Positions 6,027 through 62,167 of a stretch of DNA of 64,000 bases are shown here, one piece after another. The DNA is from Candidatus Omnitrophota bacterium. GTDB taxonomy: Bacteria > Omnitrophota > Gorgyraeia > JAFGHF01. Each line of letters starts with the position of its first letter. Position 1 is the stretch's first letter. The notes under the pieces are model-generated. The model was not told the DNA's origin. It did not search any database and saw only the letters and a list, made by a program, of their open reading frames with translations. The stretch is taken from contig CP070837.1 of the NCBI GenBank assembly GCA_020341815.1, positions 692,211 through 756,210 of the forward strand, given 5' to 3'. Position numbers and translations under genes: made by a program.

Positions 6027-6704
6027 TTACGGCTTTAATATCAAATTATTAAACTTTTCTACTTCTTTTATCTGATAGATTGGCCTCTTTTGCTTACTCA
6101 AAATCCGGCAATAACCTTTTTCATTATAAAGCCATCTATCCGAAGTTTTAGCCTTAAGGTCTATCAAATCAATCTTATAATCCCAGCCTGCGATTCGGTA
6201 TATTGTATGGATATGTTTATTTTCAAGTTTTTCTTTTTGTTCCCAAGCTAATGTAAATTGCTCAAGTTCGTCTGCCGATTTTAATATTTTTATTTCTTTA
6301 AAATTTTTATCAAGAATTTTAACTTTTGAAAGCCGAGTTCGTATCTTCTTTACATTTAAAGAATCTAAATCCAGGATAAAACTTCTTTCTTTTTCATCAT
6401 AAATAAGCAATTTCATGCCATATTTTTTAAGATTTGTAATCATTACCCATTGAATATCGTGTTCCATCAAGGGATTTATTATTATTTGATAGATTTTCTT
6501 CTTCCAGATAATTTCATTGCTTTTGATATTTCTTGCTTCGATATAGGCTTTCTGTAACAATTTCCCCATTTCATATACGGCTTTATATTCTATATCTCCA
6601 ACCCTTATTTTATCAGGGTATTCTATATGCATTCTTTTTGCAAAGAGCAAAGAAGGTAGTATTAATAGACATATTAAAAGAATATAAATTGTTTTTGATC
6701 TCAT
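6027..6704 (-). CDS. Hypothetical secreted protein, strongly AT-rich gene
   Basis: 225 aa with a signal peptide (MRSKTIYILLICLLILPSLLFA). No recognisable motif. Composition is visibly lower GC than leuS, which lies 3 nt downstream. Confidence 0.45.
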   Translation of the reverse strand: MRSKTIYILLICLLILPSLLFAKRMHIEYPDKIRVGDIEYKAVYEMGKLLQKAYIEARNIKSNEIIWKKKIYQIIINPLMEHDIQWVMITNLKKYGMKLLIYDEKERSFILDLDSLNVKKIRTRLSKVKILDKNFKEIKILKSADELEQFTLAWEQKEKLENKHIHTIYRIAGWDYKIDLIDLKAKTSDRWLYNEKGYCRILSKQKRPIYQIKEVEKFNNLILKP

Positions 6705-57906: not shown

Positions 57907-60900
57907 TTACATAAGCGGTGGCATCTTAAGCGCCGGATGTCCTGTTTTCTCCAGGTGCTTCAATAAATCTTCGGAAGTTGTGGCCACAGTCTCATCGCCA
58001 ATCTTATCAAGTAAATCGGGCGCGCCTTCTTCCTCGCATCTTTTCTTTAACTTATCTGCCAGGGCCTCTTTCAGTTCCTTGGGCATCCAGACTATTCTTT
58101 TTAAGCCTCCATCGGCAGAGATGAACTTTTTGCTCACCAAATACAATCTTCCCACACCCATAAAGCCCGGGGTCTGCGCCCCTCCGCCTACCGAACCGGC
58201 CAGCGTAGAGAAAGTCATCCCGCAGGGCGTCATCCCGCTATACTCGCGGTTGACTACCATAAATCCGTTGGCCTCGGGTAAAATTGCGATAATACACTCG
58301 AAACACCCACAATTTTTAATTAAGAGGCCGTTGGCGAAATAGCAATGTTCATCTGAAGTAGTCAGGTTATAAACATATTTAAATTGATTTTTGTTCTGAA
58401 TCTTTTCAACCTTAGTTACTATATCTAAAAAATAATCGGTCTCCAGTAAGGATTGAAGAAAATCTCTCTTTTGCTGCGGAAGCACCTCTAATACCTTCTC
58501 TACATTTGCCGCTACAGGTCTTGACCGTGCTGTCTTGTAATAAAAGCATGTTGTGGGGCTTAAAACTTTAGAGCTTTCGGGAATCGAACTCAATATTCTT
58601 CCAACAGATAAAGGCAAAACCTGCTCTTGACTTTTATTAAGCCTGTTTTCGGCTGAGAGCTTTTTGATATCGCATAAGACCTTTTTCTTCTCTGGATGCC
58701 TAACTGGAACTTTTTCTGCAAATCTACTTAAACTAATTCCGTGCAAAACGACTTTGTAAATTGAACCTGCTTTATGTATATTAGCAGTAATTCCCAATCT
58801 TTTTAATAGTAATTGCAAATGGAATACAGCTGTCTTATCTTCAATACAAAGATAGGCCTCGCCTGTATCCCACTTATCTGCATATTTCCTTAATCTTACA
58901 CTACCATCTCCATCAAAAACCCCGGCTAAGTAAGCAGAAATAAAGTTTTGAGGAAGATTGATTAATTTAGATAGGTTCCATTTACCCTTAGCGCCAACTT
59001 TAATTCCATAGTAACTCAGCAAAGTTCCAAATAACGGATTGTTGATATAGCATTGATAACACTGCTTAACAGAATTGATTAGTCTTCCTCTTATCTTTCC
59101 CTTGCCCTTTGCTCTAACTCTAACACCTATGGCATGGCCAGGGAAAATATTTTTATAAGTGTCTTTATATGCGGAAATCAACTCTTCATTGGTGTTAATA
59201 AAATCTATCTTATATTGGTATTTTCCCACTTGACAAATAGACCCGTCAGATGTAATAAGTCCTGCTAAGTAAAAGAATTCCGGACTTAGAGCTTTAGGAA
59301 TATTGATTACGGATGCAGCTCGGCCGACTTTTTTAATGGACCTTTTTATCTCTTGCCAATCTAAATTTAAATCTTGAACTATAAGTTTCAACGCTTTTAA
59401 AGTAAAGTTAATTAAGTTTGGATTATATTGGCCCCATCCTAAATTTTTCCAAGCCGCAGAAAATGAACCATATTTTGCCTTCAACTTATCTTTCATTAAT
59501 TTGTTCAAACCCTCATCTCTGACACTAAAGTCGTCTGGAACAAGATCAATTATATCAGGAACCGCACTAGATAATTCCAACTTACTAAATGAAAAAGCTC
59601 TGTCGCCTGCTTTAATTTTGCCGGCTTCAATCCAACTTAGCCCTTCGGGCTTATCTATAGCGATTTTGTGATCCTCGGTCAAAATAATCTCTGCGCCTGA
59701 TTTGGTGGTCACTTTTACTAAATCTTTTGGGGCCGGAAACTTCTGCATCGCCACTATTTTCTCTGGAATAGTCTTGCCGTTCTTCAAAGTTAAAACCGAA
59801 GACTTGGCATATTCCTCTCCCCCCTGATGTCTATTTATAAACTCTCCCATTCTGGTTATTTTCCCATCAATAATAACTTCTGTTTCTGCTGTGCAACAGC
59901 TTGTCTCCGGAAAAGTCATTATAGAGTATCCGTGGAAGCGCTCCAGAGTTTTATTGGACTTTTGATAGATAAACTCATTTACGCCTTTCCATTCCCCTCT
60001 GGCCGCATCAAGGCACTCCCCCTTTTTCACCGGCTGATTAGGGCCGGTGGGATTTAATTCGTAAGAGGCCTTGGCATCCAGATAGCTGTATGCCCCGCAC
60101 AATCCTAATCTTTCCGGCTTGACCATACATAAGTGATTGGGCGCAAAGCTCTGACACAATGTGCAACTATAAAATGTATCCACGCTCTCATCGGTCATTC
60201 CGGCTGTGCGGGCATCGCGGGCCTCATAGGCCTTTTGAGCCTCACCGATGTGTTTTTCCACGTCTTCCTGTTTGGTATAAATCGTTATCTGGGCCTTATC
60301 TACGATAGCGCCAAAGGTATCGTGCAGGCGGGCATGCAGGATTGTTCCGAAATGTTTAATTTTAAAGCCTTTGTTCTTGGCGTCCTTGGAAATCCTCATC
60401 CAGCACATATCGCGCTGGCCCATATGAAAGACACCCATTGCCTCATTTAAGAATGAATGAATCTGCCGCTCTAAAATAGGTTCGAAGTCTTTCTGCATCT
60501 TGCGTCCGGCAACCTCAACCAAAATCCCCAAAGGAAGCGCTTCACCTTCTTTAACATCATCTATCTCCGGGCCGACCATTTCAATCTTTCCGTCCTGCAC
60601 TTCATCTAACTTTTTCATCCGCACATATTCAAAGGCGGTTGTGTATTTCCCGCCGAACTGCACATACATCTGCTCTTTTCTTACCCGCTCACCTTCAAAG
60701 GCCGCAGAATACGAAACGGGAATGGGGATCTCGGAAATCTTTACCTTCACCCCGCGCACCTCGATACAAACCGGAACTATCTTTTTATAATCGCGCTCTT
60801 TGACTAAATGCTCATAGGTGCAAATGCCCGAGGGCCTGATTTCGGGAATATCCGTATCGGCAATCACCGGAAAGCCCATATTGATAGCCCCGGCACCGGT

Positions 60901-61671
60901 AGCGTATTTCACATCGTCAAGTTCACCTAAGGCCAGGCCAAAAGCAAATACCCTCTCCTTGCAATACTGCAGGCATTTGGCGGCCTCGCCCTTTTTGTGT
61001 CCGCCGAAGGTAAGCGCCCCGCGAATTGCCCAGTGCAAAGGATAAATTGCGCTGATAGTATCTCTTCCGTAAGGCACGATATAGGTATCCCAGCCCATCT
61101 CAACCTTTTCTTCCTTTAGCTGATCGATAATACTCTTTCCATTACTTGATGAACCAACAAAGGTCAGGATATTGCGCTTTTGAAACTCCCTGACAATATC
61201 AACAGCGGTCTTGTTATCCGGGGCTGCCCCTAAAATTGCCGCAAACCCGGGCATCCTTCCGTCAACCAGTTGAATGCCCAAACTCCTTAAAATAGTATCC
61301 GAGAAAAATCCGTTACAATCGGCCTGGGGCTCCTGTCCATAGAGATAGCGAAGCGCCACGATTATTTCTTCGGCAAGCAAGGTAGCCATTCCTGAATCCA
61401 GGGCATCCCCTAAATAAGGAAGCCACAGCTCTTCACTCGGCTCTTCATGCAATAGCGACTTTATATGCTCAAGGACAGGCGCTATATCGGCTAAGGTCTT
61501 TACTTCCGCTCCTAATAAAGCATAAGCCATTGGAAGATAAAAAGCAGTTTCGGGGAAAGCAACCTTAGCGTCTTTTCCTTTTTCACTAATTGCCTTGTTC
61601 AAAAAGTCTTCTGCTTCCTTGGCAACCTTTTTTGCTCCGCGTATTGCGCTTGCTGCAACTATTTTAGACAT
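57907..61671 (-). CDS. acsB: Acetyl-CoA synthase (CODH/ACS beta subunit, AcsB) interrupted in-frame by a 529-aa intein
   Basis: 1254-aa ORF. The N-terminus MSKIVAASAIRGAKKVAKEAEDFL..FPETAFYLPMAYALLG is typical AcsB. 4Fe-4S cysteines C503/C506/C515/C525 have Moorella spacing. Removing residues 592-1120 rejoins ..FPETS to CGCFEC.. and gives a 725-aa AcsB. Confidence 0.9.
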   Translation of the reverse strand: MSKIVAASAIRGAKKVAKEAEDFLNKAISEKGKDAKVAFPETAFYLPMAYALLGAEVKTLADIAPVLEHIKSLLHEEPSEELWLPYLGDALDSGMATLLAEEIIVALRYLYGQEPQADCNGFFSDTILRSLGIQLVDGRMPGFAAILGAAPDNKTAVDIVREFQKRNILTFVGSSSNGKSIIDQLKEEKVEMGWDTYIVPYGRDTISAIYPLHWAIRGALTFGGHKKGEAAKCLQYCKERVFAFGLALGELDDVKYATGAGAINMGFPVIADTDIPEIRPSGICTYEHLVKERDYKKIVPVCIEVRGVKVKISEIPIPVSYSAAFEGERVRKEQMYVQFGGKYTTAFEYVRMKKLDEVQDGKIEMVGPEIDDVKEGEALPLGILVEVAGRKMQKDFEPILERQIHSFLNEAMGVFHMGQRDMCWMRISKDAKNKGFKIKHFGTILHARLHDTFGAIVDKAQITIYTKQEDVEKHIGEAQKAYEARDARTAGMTDESVDTFYSCTLCQSFAPNHLCMVKPERLGLCGAYSYLDAKASYELNPTGPNQPVKKGECLDAARGEWKGVNEFIYQKSNKTLERFHGYSIMTFPETSCCTAETEVIIDGKITRMGEFINRHQGGEEYAKSSVLTLKNGKTIPEKIVAMQKFPAPKDLVKVTTKSGAEIILTEDHKIAIDKPEGLSWIEAGKIKAGDRAFSFSKLELSSAVPDIIDLVPDDFSVRDEGLNKLMKDKLKAKYGSFSAAWKNLGWGQYNPNLINFTLKALKLIVQDLNLDWQEIKRSIKKVGRAASVINIPKALSPEFFYLAGLITSDGSICQVGKYQYKIDFINTNEELISAYKDTYKNIFPGHAIGVRVRAKGKGKIRGRLINSVKQCYQCYINNPLFGTLLSYYGIKVGAKGKWNLSKLINLPQNFISAYLAGVFDGDGSVRLRKYADKWDTGEAYLCIEDKTAVFHLQLLLKRLGITANIHKAGSIYKVVLHGISLSRFAEKVPVRHPEKKKVLCDIKKLSAENRLNKSQEQVLPLSVGRILSSIPESSKVLSPTTCFYYKTARSRPVAANVEKVLEVLPQQKRDFLQSLLETDYFLDIVTKVEKIQNKNQFKYVYNLTTSDEHCYFANGLLIKNCGCFECIIAILPEANGFMVVNREYSGMTPCGMTFSTLAGSVGGGAQTPGFMGVGRLYLVSKKFISADGGLKRIVWMPKELKEALADKLKKRCEEEGAPDLLDKIGDETVATTSEDLLKHLEKTGHPALKMPPLM
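58312..59898 (-). mobile_element. Intein with LAGLIDADG homing-endonuclease domain inserted at the A-cluster Cys-Gly-Cys motif of AcsB
   Basis: Block A CCTAETEVIIDG starts at C592. Two LAGLIDADG motifs are present (FYLAGLITSDGSI, AYLAGVFDGDGSV). Block F/G is KYVYNLTTSDEHCYFANGLLIKN, followed by the +1 Cys of CGCFEC. Intein DNA is visibly more AT-rich than the flanking acsB exteins. Confidence 0.8.
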
Positions 61672-61737
61672 TTGATACTCCTCGTTTAATATTCACCTTG
61701 AGTGCTTACGAATTTCGAATTTCCCATATCTTGCTTT

Positions 61738-62148
61738 CTAATTTAATCTTTTACCATAAATAAGGGCTATAAGCACGCCGCCCACAGGCGTAGCGATTAT
61801 CCCTGAAATAAGACAAGGAAGAGGAAATGGGCCAGCGCTCATAGTATGCTGAAAAAATAATCCTACTAACTGAGGTAAAAACAGAAGAACTCCAAAAATA
61901 AATCCCTTTTTTGCAGGAGTGTTTCCGGGGATGCCTCTATGGATTACAAGATAAAGAAAAGAAAGAACCAATCCCATAACTATGCTTAAAAGGATTAGCT
62001 TAGTCATCATTGTAGAATCAAATGATCTATAGAGATGCTCATAACCCACATACCAATCTTTGAATATTCCTCCGTTTACTATCCCGTGAATTACATTAGA
62101 AAAAATCCCCCATATTAACCCCGCAATAAGCCATCTTAATGCTTTCAT
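61738..62148 (-). CDS. Hypothetical 4-TM membrane protein
   Basis: 136 aa, hydrophobic. It sits between acsB and the oxidoreductase. Confidence 0.4.
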   Translation of the reverse strand: MKALRWLIAGLIWGIFSNVIHGIVNGGIFKDWYVGYEHLYRSFDSTMMTKLILLSIVMGLVLSFLYLVIHRGIPGNTPAKKGFIFGVLLFLPQLVGLFFQHTMSAGPFPLPCLISGIIATPVGGVLIALIYGKRLN

Positions 62149-62167
62149 CTTTTTTACCTCCTCTTAT

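What the first reader, a model, noticed from the sequence alone, without database searches (positions are those of the whole stretch)
58700..59600. Intein carries an apparently intact double-motif LAGLIDADG homing endonuclease and is compositionally foreign
Two LAGLIDADG-type motifs are present about 110 residues apart. They are ..FFYLAGLITSDGSI.. (residues about 799-813) and ..ISAYLAGVFDGDGSV.. (about 911-925), and the acidic residues are conserved. This suggests a still-functional homing endonuclease rather than a decayed mini-intein. The intein DNA is visibly AT-richer than the neighbouring acsB codons, with runs such as aaaaaataatcggtctccagtaaggattgaag. That is consistent with horizontal acquisition.
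Basis: seen in the sequence. Interest (0 to 1): 0.6.

Follow-up and report, generated by a model that had tools for sequence, protein, structure and literature searches.

The report
Homing-endonuclease intein inside acetyl-CoA synthase
The acetyl-CoA synthase gene (acsB) of this Omnitrophota bacterium is interrupted, just before a nickel-binding cysteine, by a 529-residue self-splicing intein carrying an intact-looking LAGLIDADG homing endonuclease; this is an ordinary kind of selfish element in a host protein where I found no published description of one.

Summary
ORF 57907-61671 (-) encodes AcsB, split by a 529-aa intein at 58312-59898. Two LAGLIDADG motifs lie at 59242-59268 and 58903-58929, and both keep the catalytic Asp (D809, D922).

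- **Profiles and fold:** Pfam LAGLIDADG_3 and Intein_splicing both pass their cut-offs. An AlphaFold model (pLDDT 91) matches PI-TkoII, TliVMA, PI-PfuI and PI-SceI.
- **Endonuclease state:** It looks maintained rather than decayed. The window copy has no deviations at the 64 near-invariant columns of 46 related inteins. The nuclease core is as conserved as the splicing domain (pN about 0.17, pS saturated). Relatives with the nuclease deleted show that splicing does not need it.
- **Mobility:** A relative 93% identical in DNA lacks exactly these 1587 nt. Intein and host similarities disagree. About 45 species in at least 9 phyla carry the family at this site.
- **AT-richness:** It is real; this is the lowest-GC stretch of the 64 kb. 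It does not show recent arrival, because 33 of 34 hosts show the same offset, and so does a nuclease-less mini-intein of the same lineage.

The intein is a new member of a known kind. The insertion sits directly before the Cys595-equivalent A-cluster ligand. Interest is moderate.

The parts
57907..61671 (-). acsB precursor ORF (1254 aa): acetyl-CoA synthase with one intein
   Evidence: ORF list. NCBIfam NF040764 scores 1031.9 bits against a cut-off of 800. Pfam CODH_A_N, CdhC and ACS_CODH_B_C all match, the last split in two.
59899..61671 (-). N-extein (aa 1-591), ending ...FPETS
   Evidence: Collinear with the intein-free allele L001 2022-3796 at 93.3% nt identity.
58312..59898 (-). Intein (aa 592-1120, 529 aa)
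   Evidence: Boundaries from sequence. These 1587 nt are precisely absent from L001. Pfam Intein_splicing and TIGR01445/TIGR01443 match.
57910..58311 (-). C-extein (aa 1121-1254), starting CGCFEC. The +1 Cys corresponds to Cys595 of M. thermoacetica ACS.
   Evidence: The alignment to PDB ACS chains places query residue 99 at residue 595 of 1oao.
59584..59898 (-). N-terminal splicing (HINT) part, with Cys1 (59896-59898) and block B T665..H668 (59668-59679)
   Evidence: TIGR01445 matches aa 592-670. C1, T74 and H77 are invariant in 46 inteins.
59284..59583 (-). Variable helical insert domain (intein aa 106-205), missing from shorter family members
   Evidence: Alignment A2 shows a deletion of about 65 aa in 5 of 13 members, with mean pairwise identity 0.27. 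Helices are predicted in the AF2 model.
58699..59283 (-). LAGLIDADG endonuclease core (intein aa 206-400), two alpha-beta-beta-alpha-beta-beta-alpha halves
   Evidence: Pfam LAGLIDADG_3 with 2 stretches. AF2 secondary structure. Foldseek hits to PI-TkoII, TliVMA, PI-PfuI, PI-SceI, I-Tsp061I and I-OnuI.
59242..59268 (-). LAGLIDADG motif 1 (LAGLITSDG, aa 802-810); catalytic D809 is codon 59245-59247
   Evidence: Asp is present in 45 of 46 family members.
58903..58929 (-). LAGLIDADG motif 2 (LAGVFDGDG, aa 915-923); catalytic D922 is codon 58906-58908
   Evidence: Asp is present in 46 of 46 family members.
58438..58698 (-). Helical domain after the nuclease core (intein aa 401-487), holding the invariant T..YY.T.RSRP stretch. 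I infer it is a DNA-binding module.
   Evidence: T450, Y453, Y454, T456, R458, S459, R460 and P461 are invariant in A2. Helices are predicted with pLDDT around 90. The DNA-binding function is inferred, not shown.
58312..58437 (-). C-terminal splicing part (blocks F and G): ...YVYNLTTSDEHCYFANGLLIKN, terminal Asn1120 (58312-58314), penultimate Lys
   Evidence: TIGR01443 matches. N529 is invariant. Position F:4 is Asn in 45/46. The penultimate residue is K in 39, A in 5 and H in only 1 of 46.
58285..58311 (-). Downstream half of the inferred homing site (TGY GGN TGY TTY GAR TGY AT...). The upstream half is 59899-59925.
   Evidence: Alignment of 4 empty and 9 spliced sites. Codon positions 1 and 2 are invariant downstream of the insertion point. 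The actual recognition sequence has not been tested.

Best explanation
**What it is.** This is a class-1 intein with an embedded double-motif LAGLIDADG homing endonuclease. It is inserted in frame in acsB between Ser591 and the first Cys of the CGC motif that binds the two nickels of the A-cluster.

**Splicing (inferred from the established intein mechanism).**
1. The 1254-aa precursor is translated.
2. Cys592 makes the N-S acyl shift.
3. The thioester passes to Cys1121.
4. Asn1120 cyclises.
5. This releases a 725-aa AcsB with the native ...ETSCGCFEC... sequence and a free 529-aa intein.

The +1 nucleophile is itself a metal ligand, so the A-cluster can only be built after splicing.

**Homing (inferred).** The free intein would recognise the uninterrupted acsB sequence spanning the insertion point in an intein-less allele and cut it, using D809 and D922. 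Recombinational repair from the intein-bearing copy would then spread the element.

**What was shown here.** Anatomy, fold, conservation, purifying selection, an empty allele in a close relative, nuclease-less derivatives, and disagreement between intein and host similarities.

**History.** The element is one state of a gain, decay and loss cycle running in the acsB gene pool of Omnitrophota and other anaerobes. When it entered this lineage is unresolved, and the entry is probably not very recent.
For: **Domains.** Profiles pass their cut-offs.

**Fold.** The AF2 model has pLDDT 91.2 and pTM 0.91. Its best PDB matches are PI-TkoII 2cw7 (E=1.6e-21), TliVMA 7qss, PI-PfuI 1dq3 and PI-SceI.

**Residues.** C1, T74, H77, D331 and N529 are invariant, and D218 is present in 45/46. 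The window copy deviates at none of 64 columns conserved in at least 44 of 46 inteins.

**Selection.**
- The nuclease core has mean pairwise identity 0.498, against 0.497 for the N-splicing domain.
- Against L004 and L015, pN is 0.16-0.18 while pS is saturated at 0.75-0.79.
- Mini-inteins at the same site (P0013 149 aa, P0016 157 aa, P0070 169 aa, P0015 179 aa) lack the whole nuclease inside otherwise intact acsB. The constraint on the nuclease is therefore not a splicing requirement.

**Empty allele.** L001 is 98% identical in protein and 93% in DNA, is collinear on both sides, and lacks exactly the 1587 nt.

**Disagreement with host similarity.** Window versus P0086 is 80% in the extein and 70% in the intein. 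P0086 versus P0072 is 92% and 55%. Within Omnitrophota the two NJ trees differ.

**Spread.** About 45 GTDB species in at least 9 phyla carry the family at this site. Only 8 of the 120 best Omnitrophota-type AcsB hits carry it.
Against: - There is no experiment: neither splicing nor DNA cleavage can be shown with these tools.
- The nearest known intein is only 70% identical. No near-identical copy in a different acsB background documents a recent homing event.
- Synonymous sites are saturated, so dN/dS is only an upper-bound style argument.
- Two usually conserved splicing residues are non-canonical: F:4 is Asn rather than Asp, and the penultimate residue is Lys rather than His. This holds for the whole family.
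- Flanking divergence from L001 is only marginally raised next to the site (11 mismatches in the first 99 nt downstream, against a mean of 6.7). There is no clear co-conversion tract.
Confidence: 0.8

Rival explanations
1. The intein arrived recently by horizontal transfer from an AT-rich donor. Its low GC would then be un-ameliorated donor composition.
For: - It is the lowest-GC stretch of the window.
- A relative 93% identical in DNA (extein dS about 0.33-0.37) lacks it.
- The intein groups with L004 and L015, while the host groups with L037 and L036.
Against: - Intein GC3 is lower than extein GC3 in 33 of 34 loci, and it tracks each host's GC3 from 0.28 to 0.86. The inteins are therefore largely adapted to their hosts, with a constant deficit.
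- The L003 mini-intein has no nuclease and is the same lineage as the window's intein. Its intein pS is 0.55, no higher than the extein pS of 0.62-0.71. It keeps GC3 0.34 against 0.53-0.58 in its exteins.
- This suggests the lineage was already present at or near the window/L003 split, which is older than the window/L001 split. L001 may then have lost it.
- No donor closer than 70% identity is known.
Confidence: 0.25
2. The endonuclease looks intact but is catalytically dead or only very recently inactivated. In that case the element is now a passively inherited splicing-only intein.
For: - The homing-cycle model predicts decay after fixation.
- Mini-inteins of this family exist.
- In-silico integrity cannot see subtle loss of DNA binding.
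- No evidence of a very recent homing event was found.
Against: - There are no deviations at 64 near-invariant columns, and both catalytic Asp are present.
- pN in the nuclease core is no higher than in the splicing domain.
- The ORF is uninterrupted.
- The intein is polymorphic rather than fixed among close relatives, the stage at which selection for nuclease activity operates.
Confidence: 0.15
3. The intein has been co-opted as a conditional switch. Splicing, which uses the Ni-ligand Cys as its nucleophile, would respond to redox state or metal availability and so gate maturation of the oxygen-sensitive A-cluster.
For: - The +1 Cys corresponds to Cys595, and site a lies before Cys509.
- Omnitrophota members start with Cys-Cys.
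- Related inteins sit before cysteines within Cys-containing motifs of hydrogenase subunits and HdrA-like and POR-like proteins.
- Redox-controlled splicing is known for other inteins; this last point rests on my own knowledge and was not tested here.
Against: - Most close relatives have no intein (112 of the 120 best hits lack a site-b intein), so it is dispensable.
- Insertion at conserved catalytic motifs is the general rule for selfish inteins and needs no benefit to the host.
- The nuclease is conserved, which a purely regulatory element would not need.
Confidence: 0.1
4. The insertion is an assembly or annotation artefact.
For: The exact 1254-aa product is not on record in the protein collection.
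Against: - The insertion is in frame, with canonical Cys1 and Asn|Cys junctions.
- The same site is occupied in about 45 independently assembled genomes.
- The flanks are collinear with L001.
Confidence: 0.01

Closest known systems
PI-TkoII (Thermococcus kodakarensis DNA polymerase intein 2; PDB 2cw7)
   Same: It is the best structural match (Foldseek E=1.6e-21, TM 0.63 over the whole chain). It is a class-1 intein of about 530 aa with a double-motif LAGLIDADG core plus extra domains.
   Different: Only 18% sequence identity. The host is an archaeal family-B DNA polymerase rather than a bacterial metabolic metalloenzyme. The window's intein has Asn at F:4 and Lys as the penultimate residue.
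TliVMA/PhoVMA inteins (7qss, 7qst), PI-PfuI (1dq3) and PI-SceI (1vde, 1lws)
   Same: They share the same two-function architecture, a HINT splicing domain interrupted by a LAGLIDADG nuclease (E 5e-20 to 1e-9). They have one catalytic Asp at the end of each LAGLIDADG helix.
   Different: 11-15% identity. The accessory domains differ: the window has a variable helical insert of about 100 aa before the nuclease core and a conserved helical T..YY.T.RSRP module of about 85 aa after it. Their hosts are ATPase or ribonucleotide reductase proteins.
Other members of the AcsB site-b intein family (P0086/L004 at 70%, L015 at 67%, others at 38-53%), annotated only as 'LAGLIDADG family homing endonuclease' in MAG records
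   Same: They share the insertion point, domain order, invariant residues and the xKN|C or xAN|C junction.
   Different: The window's copy is a distinct sequence whose nearest relative is 70% identical. Some members lack the insert domain or the whole nuclease.
AcsB site-a inteins, and inteins of [NiFe]-hydrogenase subunits and HdrA-like and POR-like proteins (P0095, P0109, P0150, P0152, P0138, P0139, P0142, P0148)
   Same: They are the nearest relatives outside the family (28-33% identity). They have a LAGLIDADG nuclease, a C-terminal xSN|C or xKN|C junction without a penultimate His, and insertion directly before a Cys within a Cys-containing motif. That these Cys are metal ligands is my reading of the motifs, not a test.
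   Different: They occupy different host proteins or a different site in AcsB (before the Cys509 equivalent). They are too divergent to be the same allele family.

Membership tests
Class-1 intein (HINT protein-splicing domain) | In-frame insertion whose removal restores the contiguous conserved host sequence | tested here: met
   Removing aa 592-1120 gives ...FPETSCGCFECII..., identical in protein to the intein-free allele P0017/L001. The 1587 nt are exactly absent there.
Class-1 intein (HINT protein-splicing domain) | N-terminal Cys/Ser nucleophile and block B TxxH | tested here: met
   C592 and T665..H668 are present. All three are invariant in 46 family members.
Class-1 intein (HINT protein-splicing domain) | C-terminal Asn followed by a Cys/Ser/Thr +1 nucleophile | tested here: met
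   N1120|C1121 is present, and the Asn is invariant.
Class-1 intein (HINT protein-splicing domain) | Profile match above the curated cut-off | tested here: met
   PF14890 scores 43.7 bits against 35.8. TIGR01445 scores 40.1 against 24.5. TIGR01443 scores 16.0-18.3 against 15.6.
Class-1 intein (HINT protein-splicing domain) | Common accessory residues, which are not defining: Asp at block F position 4 and His as the penultimate residue | tested here: not met
   F:4 is Asn (45/46). The penultimate residue is Lys (K 39, A 5, Q 1, H 1 of 46). Functional inteins without a penultimate His are known; this rests on my own knowledge. I count this as a family peculiarity, not an exclusion.
Class-1 intein (HINT protein-splicing domain) | Demonstrated protein splicing | not testable with these tools
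   Splicing is inferred from conservation of the family in an otherwise intact key enzyme across about 45 species.
Double-motif (monomeric) LAGLIDADG homing endonuclease, intein-encoded | Two LAGLIDADG motifs in one chain about 100-115 residues apart, each ending in an acidic residue | tested here: met
   The motifs are at aa 802-810 and 915-923, with D809 and D922. Asp is conserved in 45/46 and 46/46.
Double-motif (monomeric) LAGLIDADG homing endonuclease, intein-encoded | Profile match above the curated cut-off | tested here: met
   PF14528 LAGLIDADG_3 scores 53.1 bits against 22.5, with two stretches.
Double-motif (monomeric) LAGLIDADG homing endonuclease, intein-encoded | Two alpha-beta-beta-alpha-beta-beta-alpha half-domains, with the LAGLIDADG helices at the interface | tested here: met
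   The AF2 elements are H206-218, E219-225, E228-235, H238-251, E258-286 and H288-296 for the first half. The second half is H317-331, E333-337, E345-352, H355-367, E373-386 and H387-396. Foldseek matches solved LAGLIDADG enzymes. This is a predicted model, not a solved structure.
Double-motif (monomeric) LAGLIDADG homing endonuclease, intein-encoded | Site-specific cleavage of the intein-less allele and homing | not testable with these tools
   There is only indirect support: the empty allele, the disagreement with host similarity, and purifying selection.
Host: acetyl-CoA synthase AcsB (A-cluster subunit) | Equivalog profile match, and all A-cluster Cys ligands (Cys506, 509, 518, 528, 595, 597 in M. 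thermoacetica numbering) | tested here: met
   NF040764 scores 1031.9 bits against 800. In the alignment to 1oao, query C10, C13, C22, C32, C99 and C101 fall at 506, 509, 518, 528, 595 and 597. The ligand roles come from the published ACS structures and rest on my own knowledge.

The most novel reading that the evidence does not exclude
A related clade of LAGLIDADG inteins, all lacking the penultimate His, has specifically colonised metal-ligand cysteines of anaerobic energy-metabolism enzymes in uncultivated anaerobes. The hosts are ACS at two sites, [NiFe]-hydrogenase large and small subunits, and HdrA-like and POR-like proteins. Because the ligand Cys serves as the splicing nucleophile, splicing may be sensitive to redox state or metal availability. 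It would then act as a post-translational gate on cofactor assembly, rather than the intein being purely parasitic.
Probability: 0.1. Interest if true: 0.7.

Novelty: new member of a known kind. Interest (0 to 1): 0.38.

Why it matters
**Unusual host.** Inteins are known mostly from replication, repair and ATPase proteins. Here one sits in the key carbon-fixing enzyme of the Wood-Ljungdahl pathway, exactly at a nickel-binding cysteine. My full-text searches found no paper linking inteins with acetyl-CoA synthase.

**Possible uses.**
- The family gives a natural series for studying the homing cycle in uncultivated anaerobes: full, mini and empty alleles in close relatives, a second site, and at least 9 phyla.
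- It is a candidate new LAGLIDADG specificity.
- It is a test case for whether splicing at a metal-ligand Cys is conditional.

**Practical point.** These long acsB genes are annotated as 'LAGLIDADG family homing endonuclease' in MAG records. That can hide a complete Wood-Ljungdahl pathway in metabolic reconstructions.

Tried and rejected
- **PDB sequence search:** phmmer with the intein gave only a weak hit to the MJ0781 (KlbA) intein. A fold comparison was needed.
- **First word-indexed protein search:** it returned only 16 hits and missed the 70% relative P0086, which turned up through the extein search and the genome scan.
- **Metagenome scan:** no relative closer than 52%.
- **Exact-product look-up:** the window's protein is not on record, so the source sample is unknown.
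- **Co-conversion tract next to the insertion site, against L001:** 11 mismatches in the first 99 nt downstream against a mean of 6.7, and 5 in the first 30 nt. This is marginal and I did not claim it.
- **dN/dS against L004 and L015:** dS is saturated, so I used only pN against pS.
- **NJ trees:** the extein segments for L015 and L042 were contaminated by a second (site-a) intein. Their placement in the extein tree should be ignored.
- **Literature:** searches for intein with acetyl-CoA synthase, Wood-Ljungdahl, carbon monoxide dehydrogenase or hydrogenase found nothing relevant. The library lacks most subscription journals and InBase.
- **Other inteins in the window:** none in the ten other large ORFs I scanned.
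- **Class 2 or class 3 intein:** rejected, because Cys1 is invariant and there is no WCT signature.
Full report

Yes. ORF 57907..61671 on the minus strand encodes 1254 aa. Residues 592-1120 (window 58312-59898) interrupt an otherwise normal AcsB. The core motifs LAGLITSDG (802-810; 59242-59268) and LAGVFDGDG (915-923; 58903-58929) are 113 residues apart, and each has Asp at position 8 (D809, D922).

Pfam LAGLIDADG_3 matches with E=3.9e-14 (53.1 bits against 22.5, two stretches). Intein_splicing scores 43.7 bits against 35.8. NCBIfam intein_Nterm and intein_Cterm also pass. The quoted AT-rich run exists at 58427-58458, inside the intein but outside the stated box.

The intein has 36.5% GC (GC3 0.329). 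The exteins have 47.6% and 50.4% (GC3 0.51 and 0.57). It is the lowest-GC 1587-nt stretch of the 64 kb. Its GC3 is 2.5 sd below the mean of 52 ORFs. Its synonymous codon usage differs from the exteins (p=1.4e-4).

**2. Anatomy**

The splicing residues are:
- Cys592 (followed by a second Cys);
- block B T665..H668;
- blocks F and G, ...YVYNLTTSDEHCYFANGLLIKN;
- terminal Asn1120 and the +1 residue Cys1121.

An AlphaFold2 model built on a 20-sequence family alignment is confident (pLDDT 91.2, pTM 0.91). From N to C terminus it shows:
- a beta-rich HINT N-part (1-105);
- a helical insert (106-205);
- two alpha-beta-beta-alpha-beta-beta-alpha halves, each headed by a LAGLIDADG helix (206-400);
- a helical module (401-487);
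- the HINT C-part (488-529).

Foldseek against the PDB ranks PI-TkoII first (2cw7, E=1.6e-21, TM 0.63). TliVMA (7qss), PI-PfuI (1dq3), PhoVMA and PI-SceI follow, then free-standing LAGLIDADG enzymes.

Two usually conserved splicing residues are non-canonical: F:4 is Asn and the penultimate residue is Lys. This holds for the whole family, so it is a lineage trait and not a lesion.

**3. Host and insertion point**

The host is AcsB (NF040764, 1032 bits). It lies in an acs operon with a Pyr_redox protein, AcsC, RACo, a CooC-like ATPase, AcsD and AcsE.

Aligning the spliced C-terminal region to solved ACS chains places the six cysteines at positions 506, 509, 518, 528, 595 and 597 of the M. thermoacetica enzyme. 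The intein therefore sits immediately before the Cys595 equivalent, the first Cys of the CGC motif. That this motif ligates the nickels comes from the published ACS structures and is my own knowledge. The splicing nucleophile is thus itself an A-cluster ligand.

The host's closest relatives are named Omnitrophota.

**4. Is the endonuclease maintained or decaying?**

Four lines of evidence point to maintenance.

(a) In 46 non-identical full-length inteins at this site, 64 columns are conserved in at least 44 sequences. The window's copy deviates at none of them. D218 is present in 45/46 and D331 in 46/46.

(b) The nuclease core is as conserved as the N-splicing domain (mean pairwise identity 0.498 against 0.497). 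Against the two nearest relatives its pN is 0.16-0.18, while pS is saturated at 0.75-0.79.

(c) Four relatives carry mini-inteins of 149-179 aa at the same site, with the whole nuclease deleted, inside otherwise intact acsB. Splicing therefore does not need the nuclease, and the constraint on it must come from its own activity. This last step is an inference.

(d) The ORF is uninterrupted.

None of this proves present-day catalysis.

**5. Is it mobile?**

- **Empty allele.** Contig L001 (protein P0017) is 98% identical in protein and about 93% in DNA across 7 kb. It is collinear on both sides and lacks exactly the 1587 nt.
- **Low frequency.** Of the 120 best AcsB relatives, only 8 carry an intein at this site: 6 full and 2 mini.
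- **Disagreement with host similarity.** Window versus P0086 is 80% in the extein and 70% in the intein. P0086 versus P0072 is 92% and 55%. In NJ trees the window's intein groups with L004 and L015, while its extein groups with L037 and L036.
- **Broad tracking at depth.** At deeper levels the intein tree broadly follows the host tree (Spearman 0.53). That is expected if homing mostly occurs between related alleles.
- **Distribution.** The family occupies this site in about 45 GTDB species. These are labelled Omnitrophota, Chloroflexota, Aerophobetes, Actinomycetota, Clostridia, Bipolaricaulota/Acetothermia, Planctomycetia, Poribacteria and Fraserbacteria. A mini version occurs in a Thermoplasmatota archaeon.
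- **Nearest relative.** The nearest known relative of the window's intein is 70% identical.

**6. What does the AT-richness mean?**

It is real, but it does not date the arrival.
- In 33 of 34 related loci the intein's GC3 is below that of its exteins. It nevertheless tracks the host: about 0.3-0.45 in Omnitrophota-type hosts and 0.6-0.86 in Chloroflexota.
- The mini-intein of L003 has no nuclease and so is presumably immobile. It belongs to the same lineage as the window's intein: 79% aa identity, with intein pS 0.55 no higher than the extein pS of 0.62-0.71. It is just as AT-shifted, at GC3 0.34 against 0.53-0.58.

The likeliest cause is a standing bias, meaning weaker selection on composition in the element than in acsB. 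An element pool that is AT-rich everywhere is also possible.

The same data suggest the lineage was present near the window/L003 split, which is older than the window/L001 split (extein dS about 0.33-0.37). L001 may have lost the intein rather than the window having gained it recently. I cannot decide between these with saturated sites.

**7. Mechanism**

Shown here: the parts, their conservation, and the polymorphism.

Inferred from the established chemistry of class-1 inteins and LAGLIDADG enzymes:
1. The precursor is translated.
2. An acyl shift occurs at Cys592.
3. Trans-thioesterification passes the N-extein to Cys1121.
4. Asn1120 cyclises.
5. Mature 725-aa AcsB and the free intein are released.
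6. The free intein recognises and cleaves the uninterrupted site.
7. Recombinational repair copies the intein into the cut allele.

The candidate target spans the junction. Among 4 empty and 9 spliced sites, codon positions 1 and 2 of CGCFECI are invariant: TGY GGN TGY TTY GAR TGY AT.

**8. Comparison with what is known, and novelty**

This is a textbook kind of element, a bifunctional LAGLIDADG intein of the PI-TkoII/PI-PfuI type. What is new is the host protein and the site.

Full-text searches combining intein with acetyl-CoA synthase, Wood-Ljungdahl or carbon monoxide dehydrogenase returned nothing on the subject. Public records label the homologues only as 'LAGLIDADG family homing endonuclease'. 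The library does not cover subscription journals or InBase, so prior mention cannot be excluded.

I file it as a new member of a known kind, with moderate interest.

**9. Wider lead, only partly followed**

An exhaustive profile-free search shows that the next relatives (28-33% identity) are inteins in four kinds of host:
- AcsB at a second site, before the Cys509 equivalent;
- [NiFe]-hydrogenase large (RICGI|C) and small subunits;
- HdrA-like proteins;
- POR-like proteins.

Each sits directly before a Cys within a Cys-containing motif, and each ends xSN|C or xKN|C. That these Cys are metal ligands is my reading of the motifs and was not tested. This leaves room for a conditional-splicing reading, but I have no evidence for it.

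Noticed in passing
window 61672-62166 (ORF 61738-62148, -): A 495-nt segment lies between the Pyr_redox gene and acsB. It encodes a 136-aa hydrophobic orphan protein with no Pfam hit and GC3 0.31. It is absent from four relatives (L001, L083, L084, L085), where acsB follows the Pyr_redox gene directly. It is a second insertion/deletion difference in this operon.
   Followed up: partly
window 6027-6704 (-): A 225-aa ORF with 28.5% GC (GC3 0.27) and no Pfam hit, next to leuS. It is the only other stretch of the window as AT-rich as the intein.
   Followed up: no
P0095, P0109, P0150, P0152, P0001; loci L015, L042: AcsB has a second intein site, directly before the Cys509-equivalent cysteine (FYSCTL|C...VVKN|CQSFAPNH), which also carries a LAGLIDADG nuclease. 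P0001 carries inteins at both sites. L015 and L042 probably do too, because their N-exteins are about 1150 aa.
   Followed up: partly
P0138, P0139, P0142, P0144, P0147, P0148, P0151, P0155: The nearest relatives outside ACS (28-33% identity) are inteins in four kinds of host. These are the [NiFe]-hydrogenase large subunit (RICGI|C), a NuoB-like small subunit (LDCGS|C...N|CNGC), HdrA-like proteins and TPP/POR-like proteins. Each sits just before a Cys within a Cys-containing motif, and none has a penultimate His.
   Followed up: partly
L003 4152-6140 (P0013); also P0016, P0070, P0015: These are mini-inteins of 149-179 aa at the same AcsB site. In L003 the deletion removes intein residues of about 110-481 of the window's lineage (79% aa identity in the remaining part). 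Together with the empty L001 allele this gives full, mini and empty states among close relatives.
   Followed up: yes
loci L006/L009, L024/L039, L036/L037: AcsB exteins are 88-93% identical between MAGs labelled as different phyla: Aerophobetes and Clostridia, Fraserbacteria and Bipolaricaulota, Planctomycetia and Omnitrophota. This suggests either transfer of acsB itself or mislabelled bins.
   Followed up: no
intein aa 446-462 (window about 58513-58563): A stretch LSPTTCFYYKTARSRPV in the helical module after the nuclease core is among the most conserved parts of the whole intein family (T450, Y453, Y454, T456, R458, S459, R460 and P461 are invariant). Its role is unknown, and it may be a DNA-contact element.
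   Followed up: no
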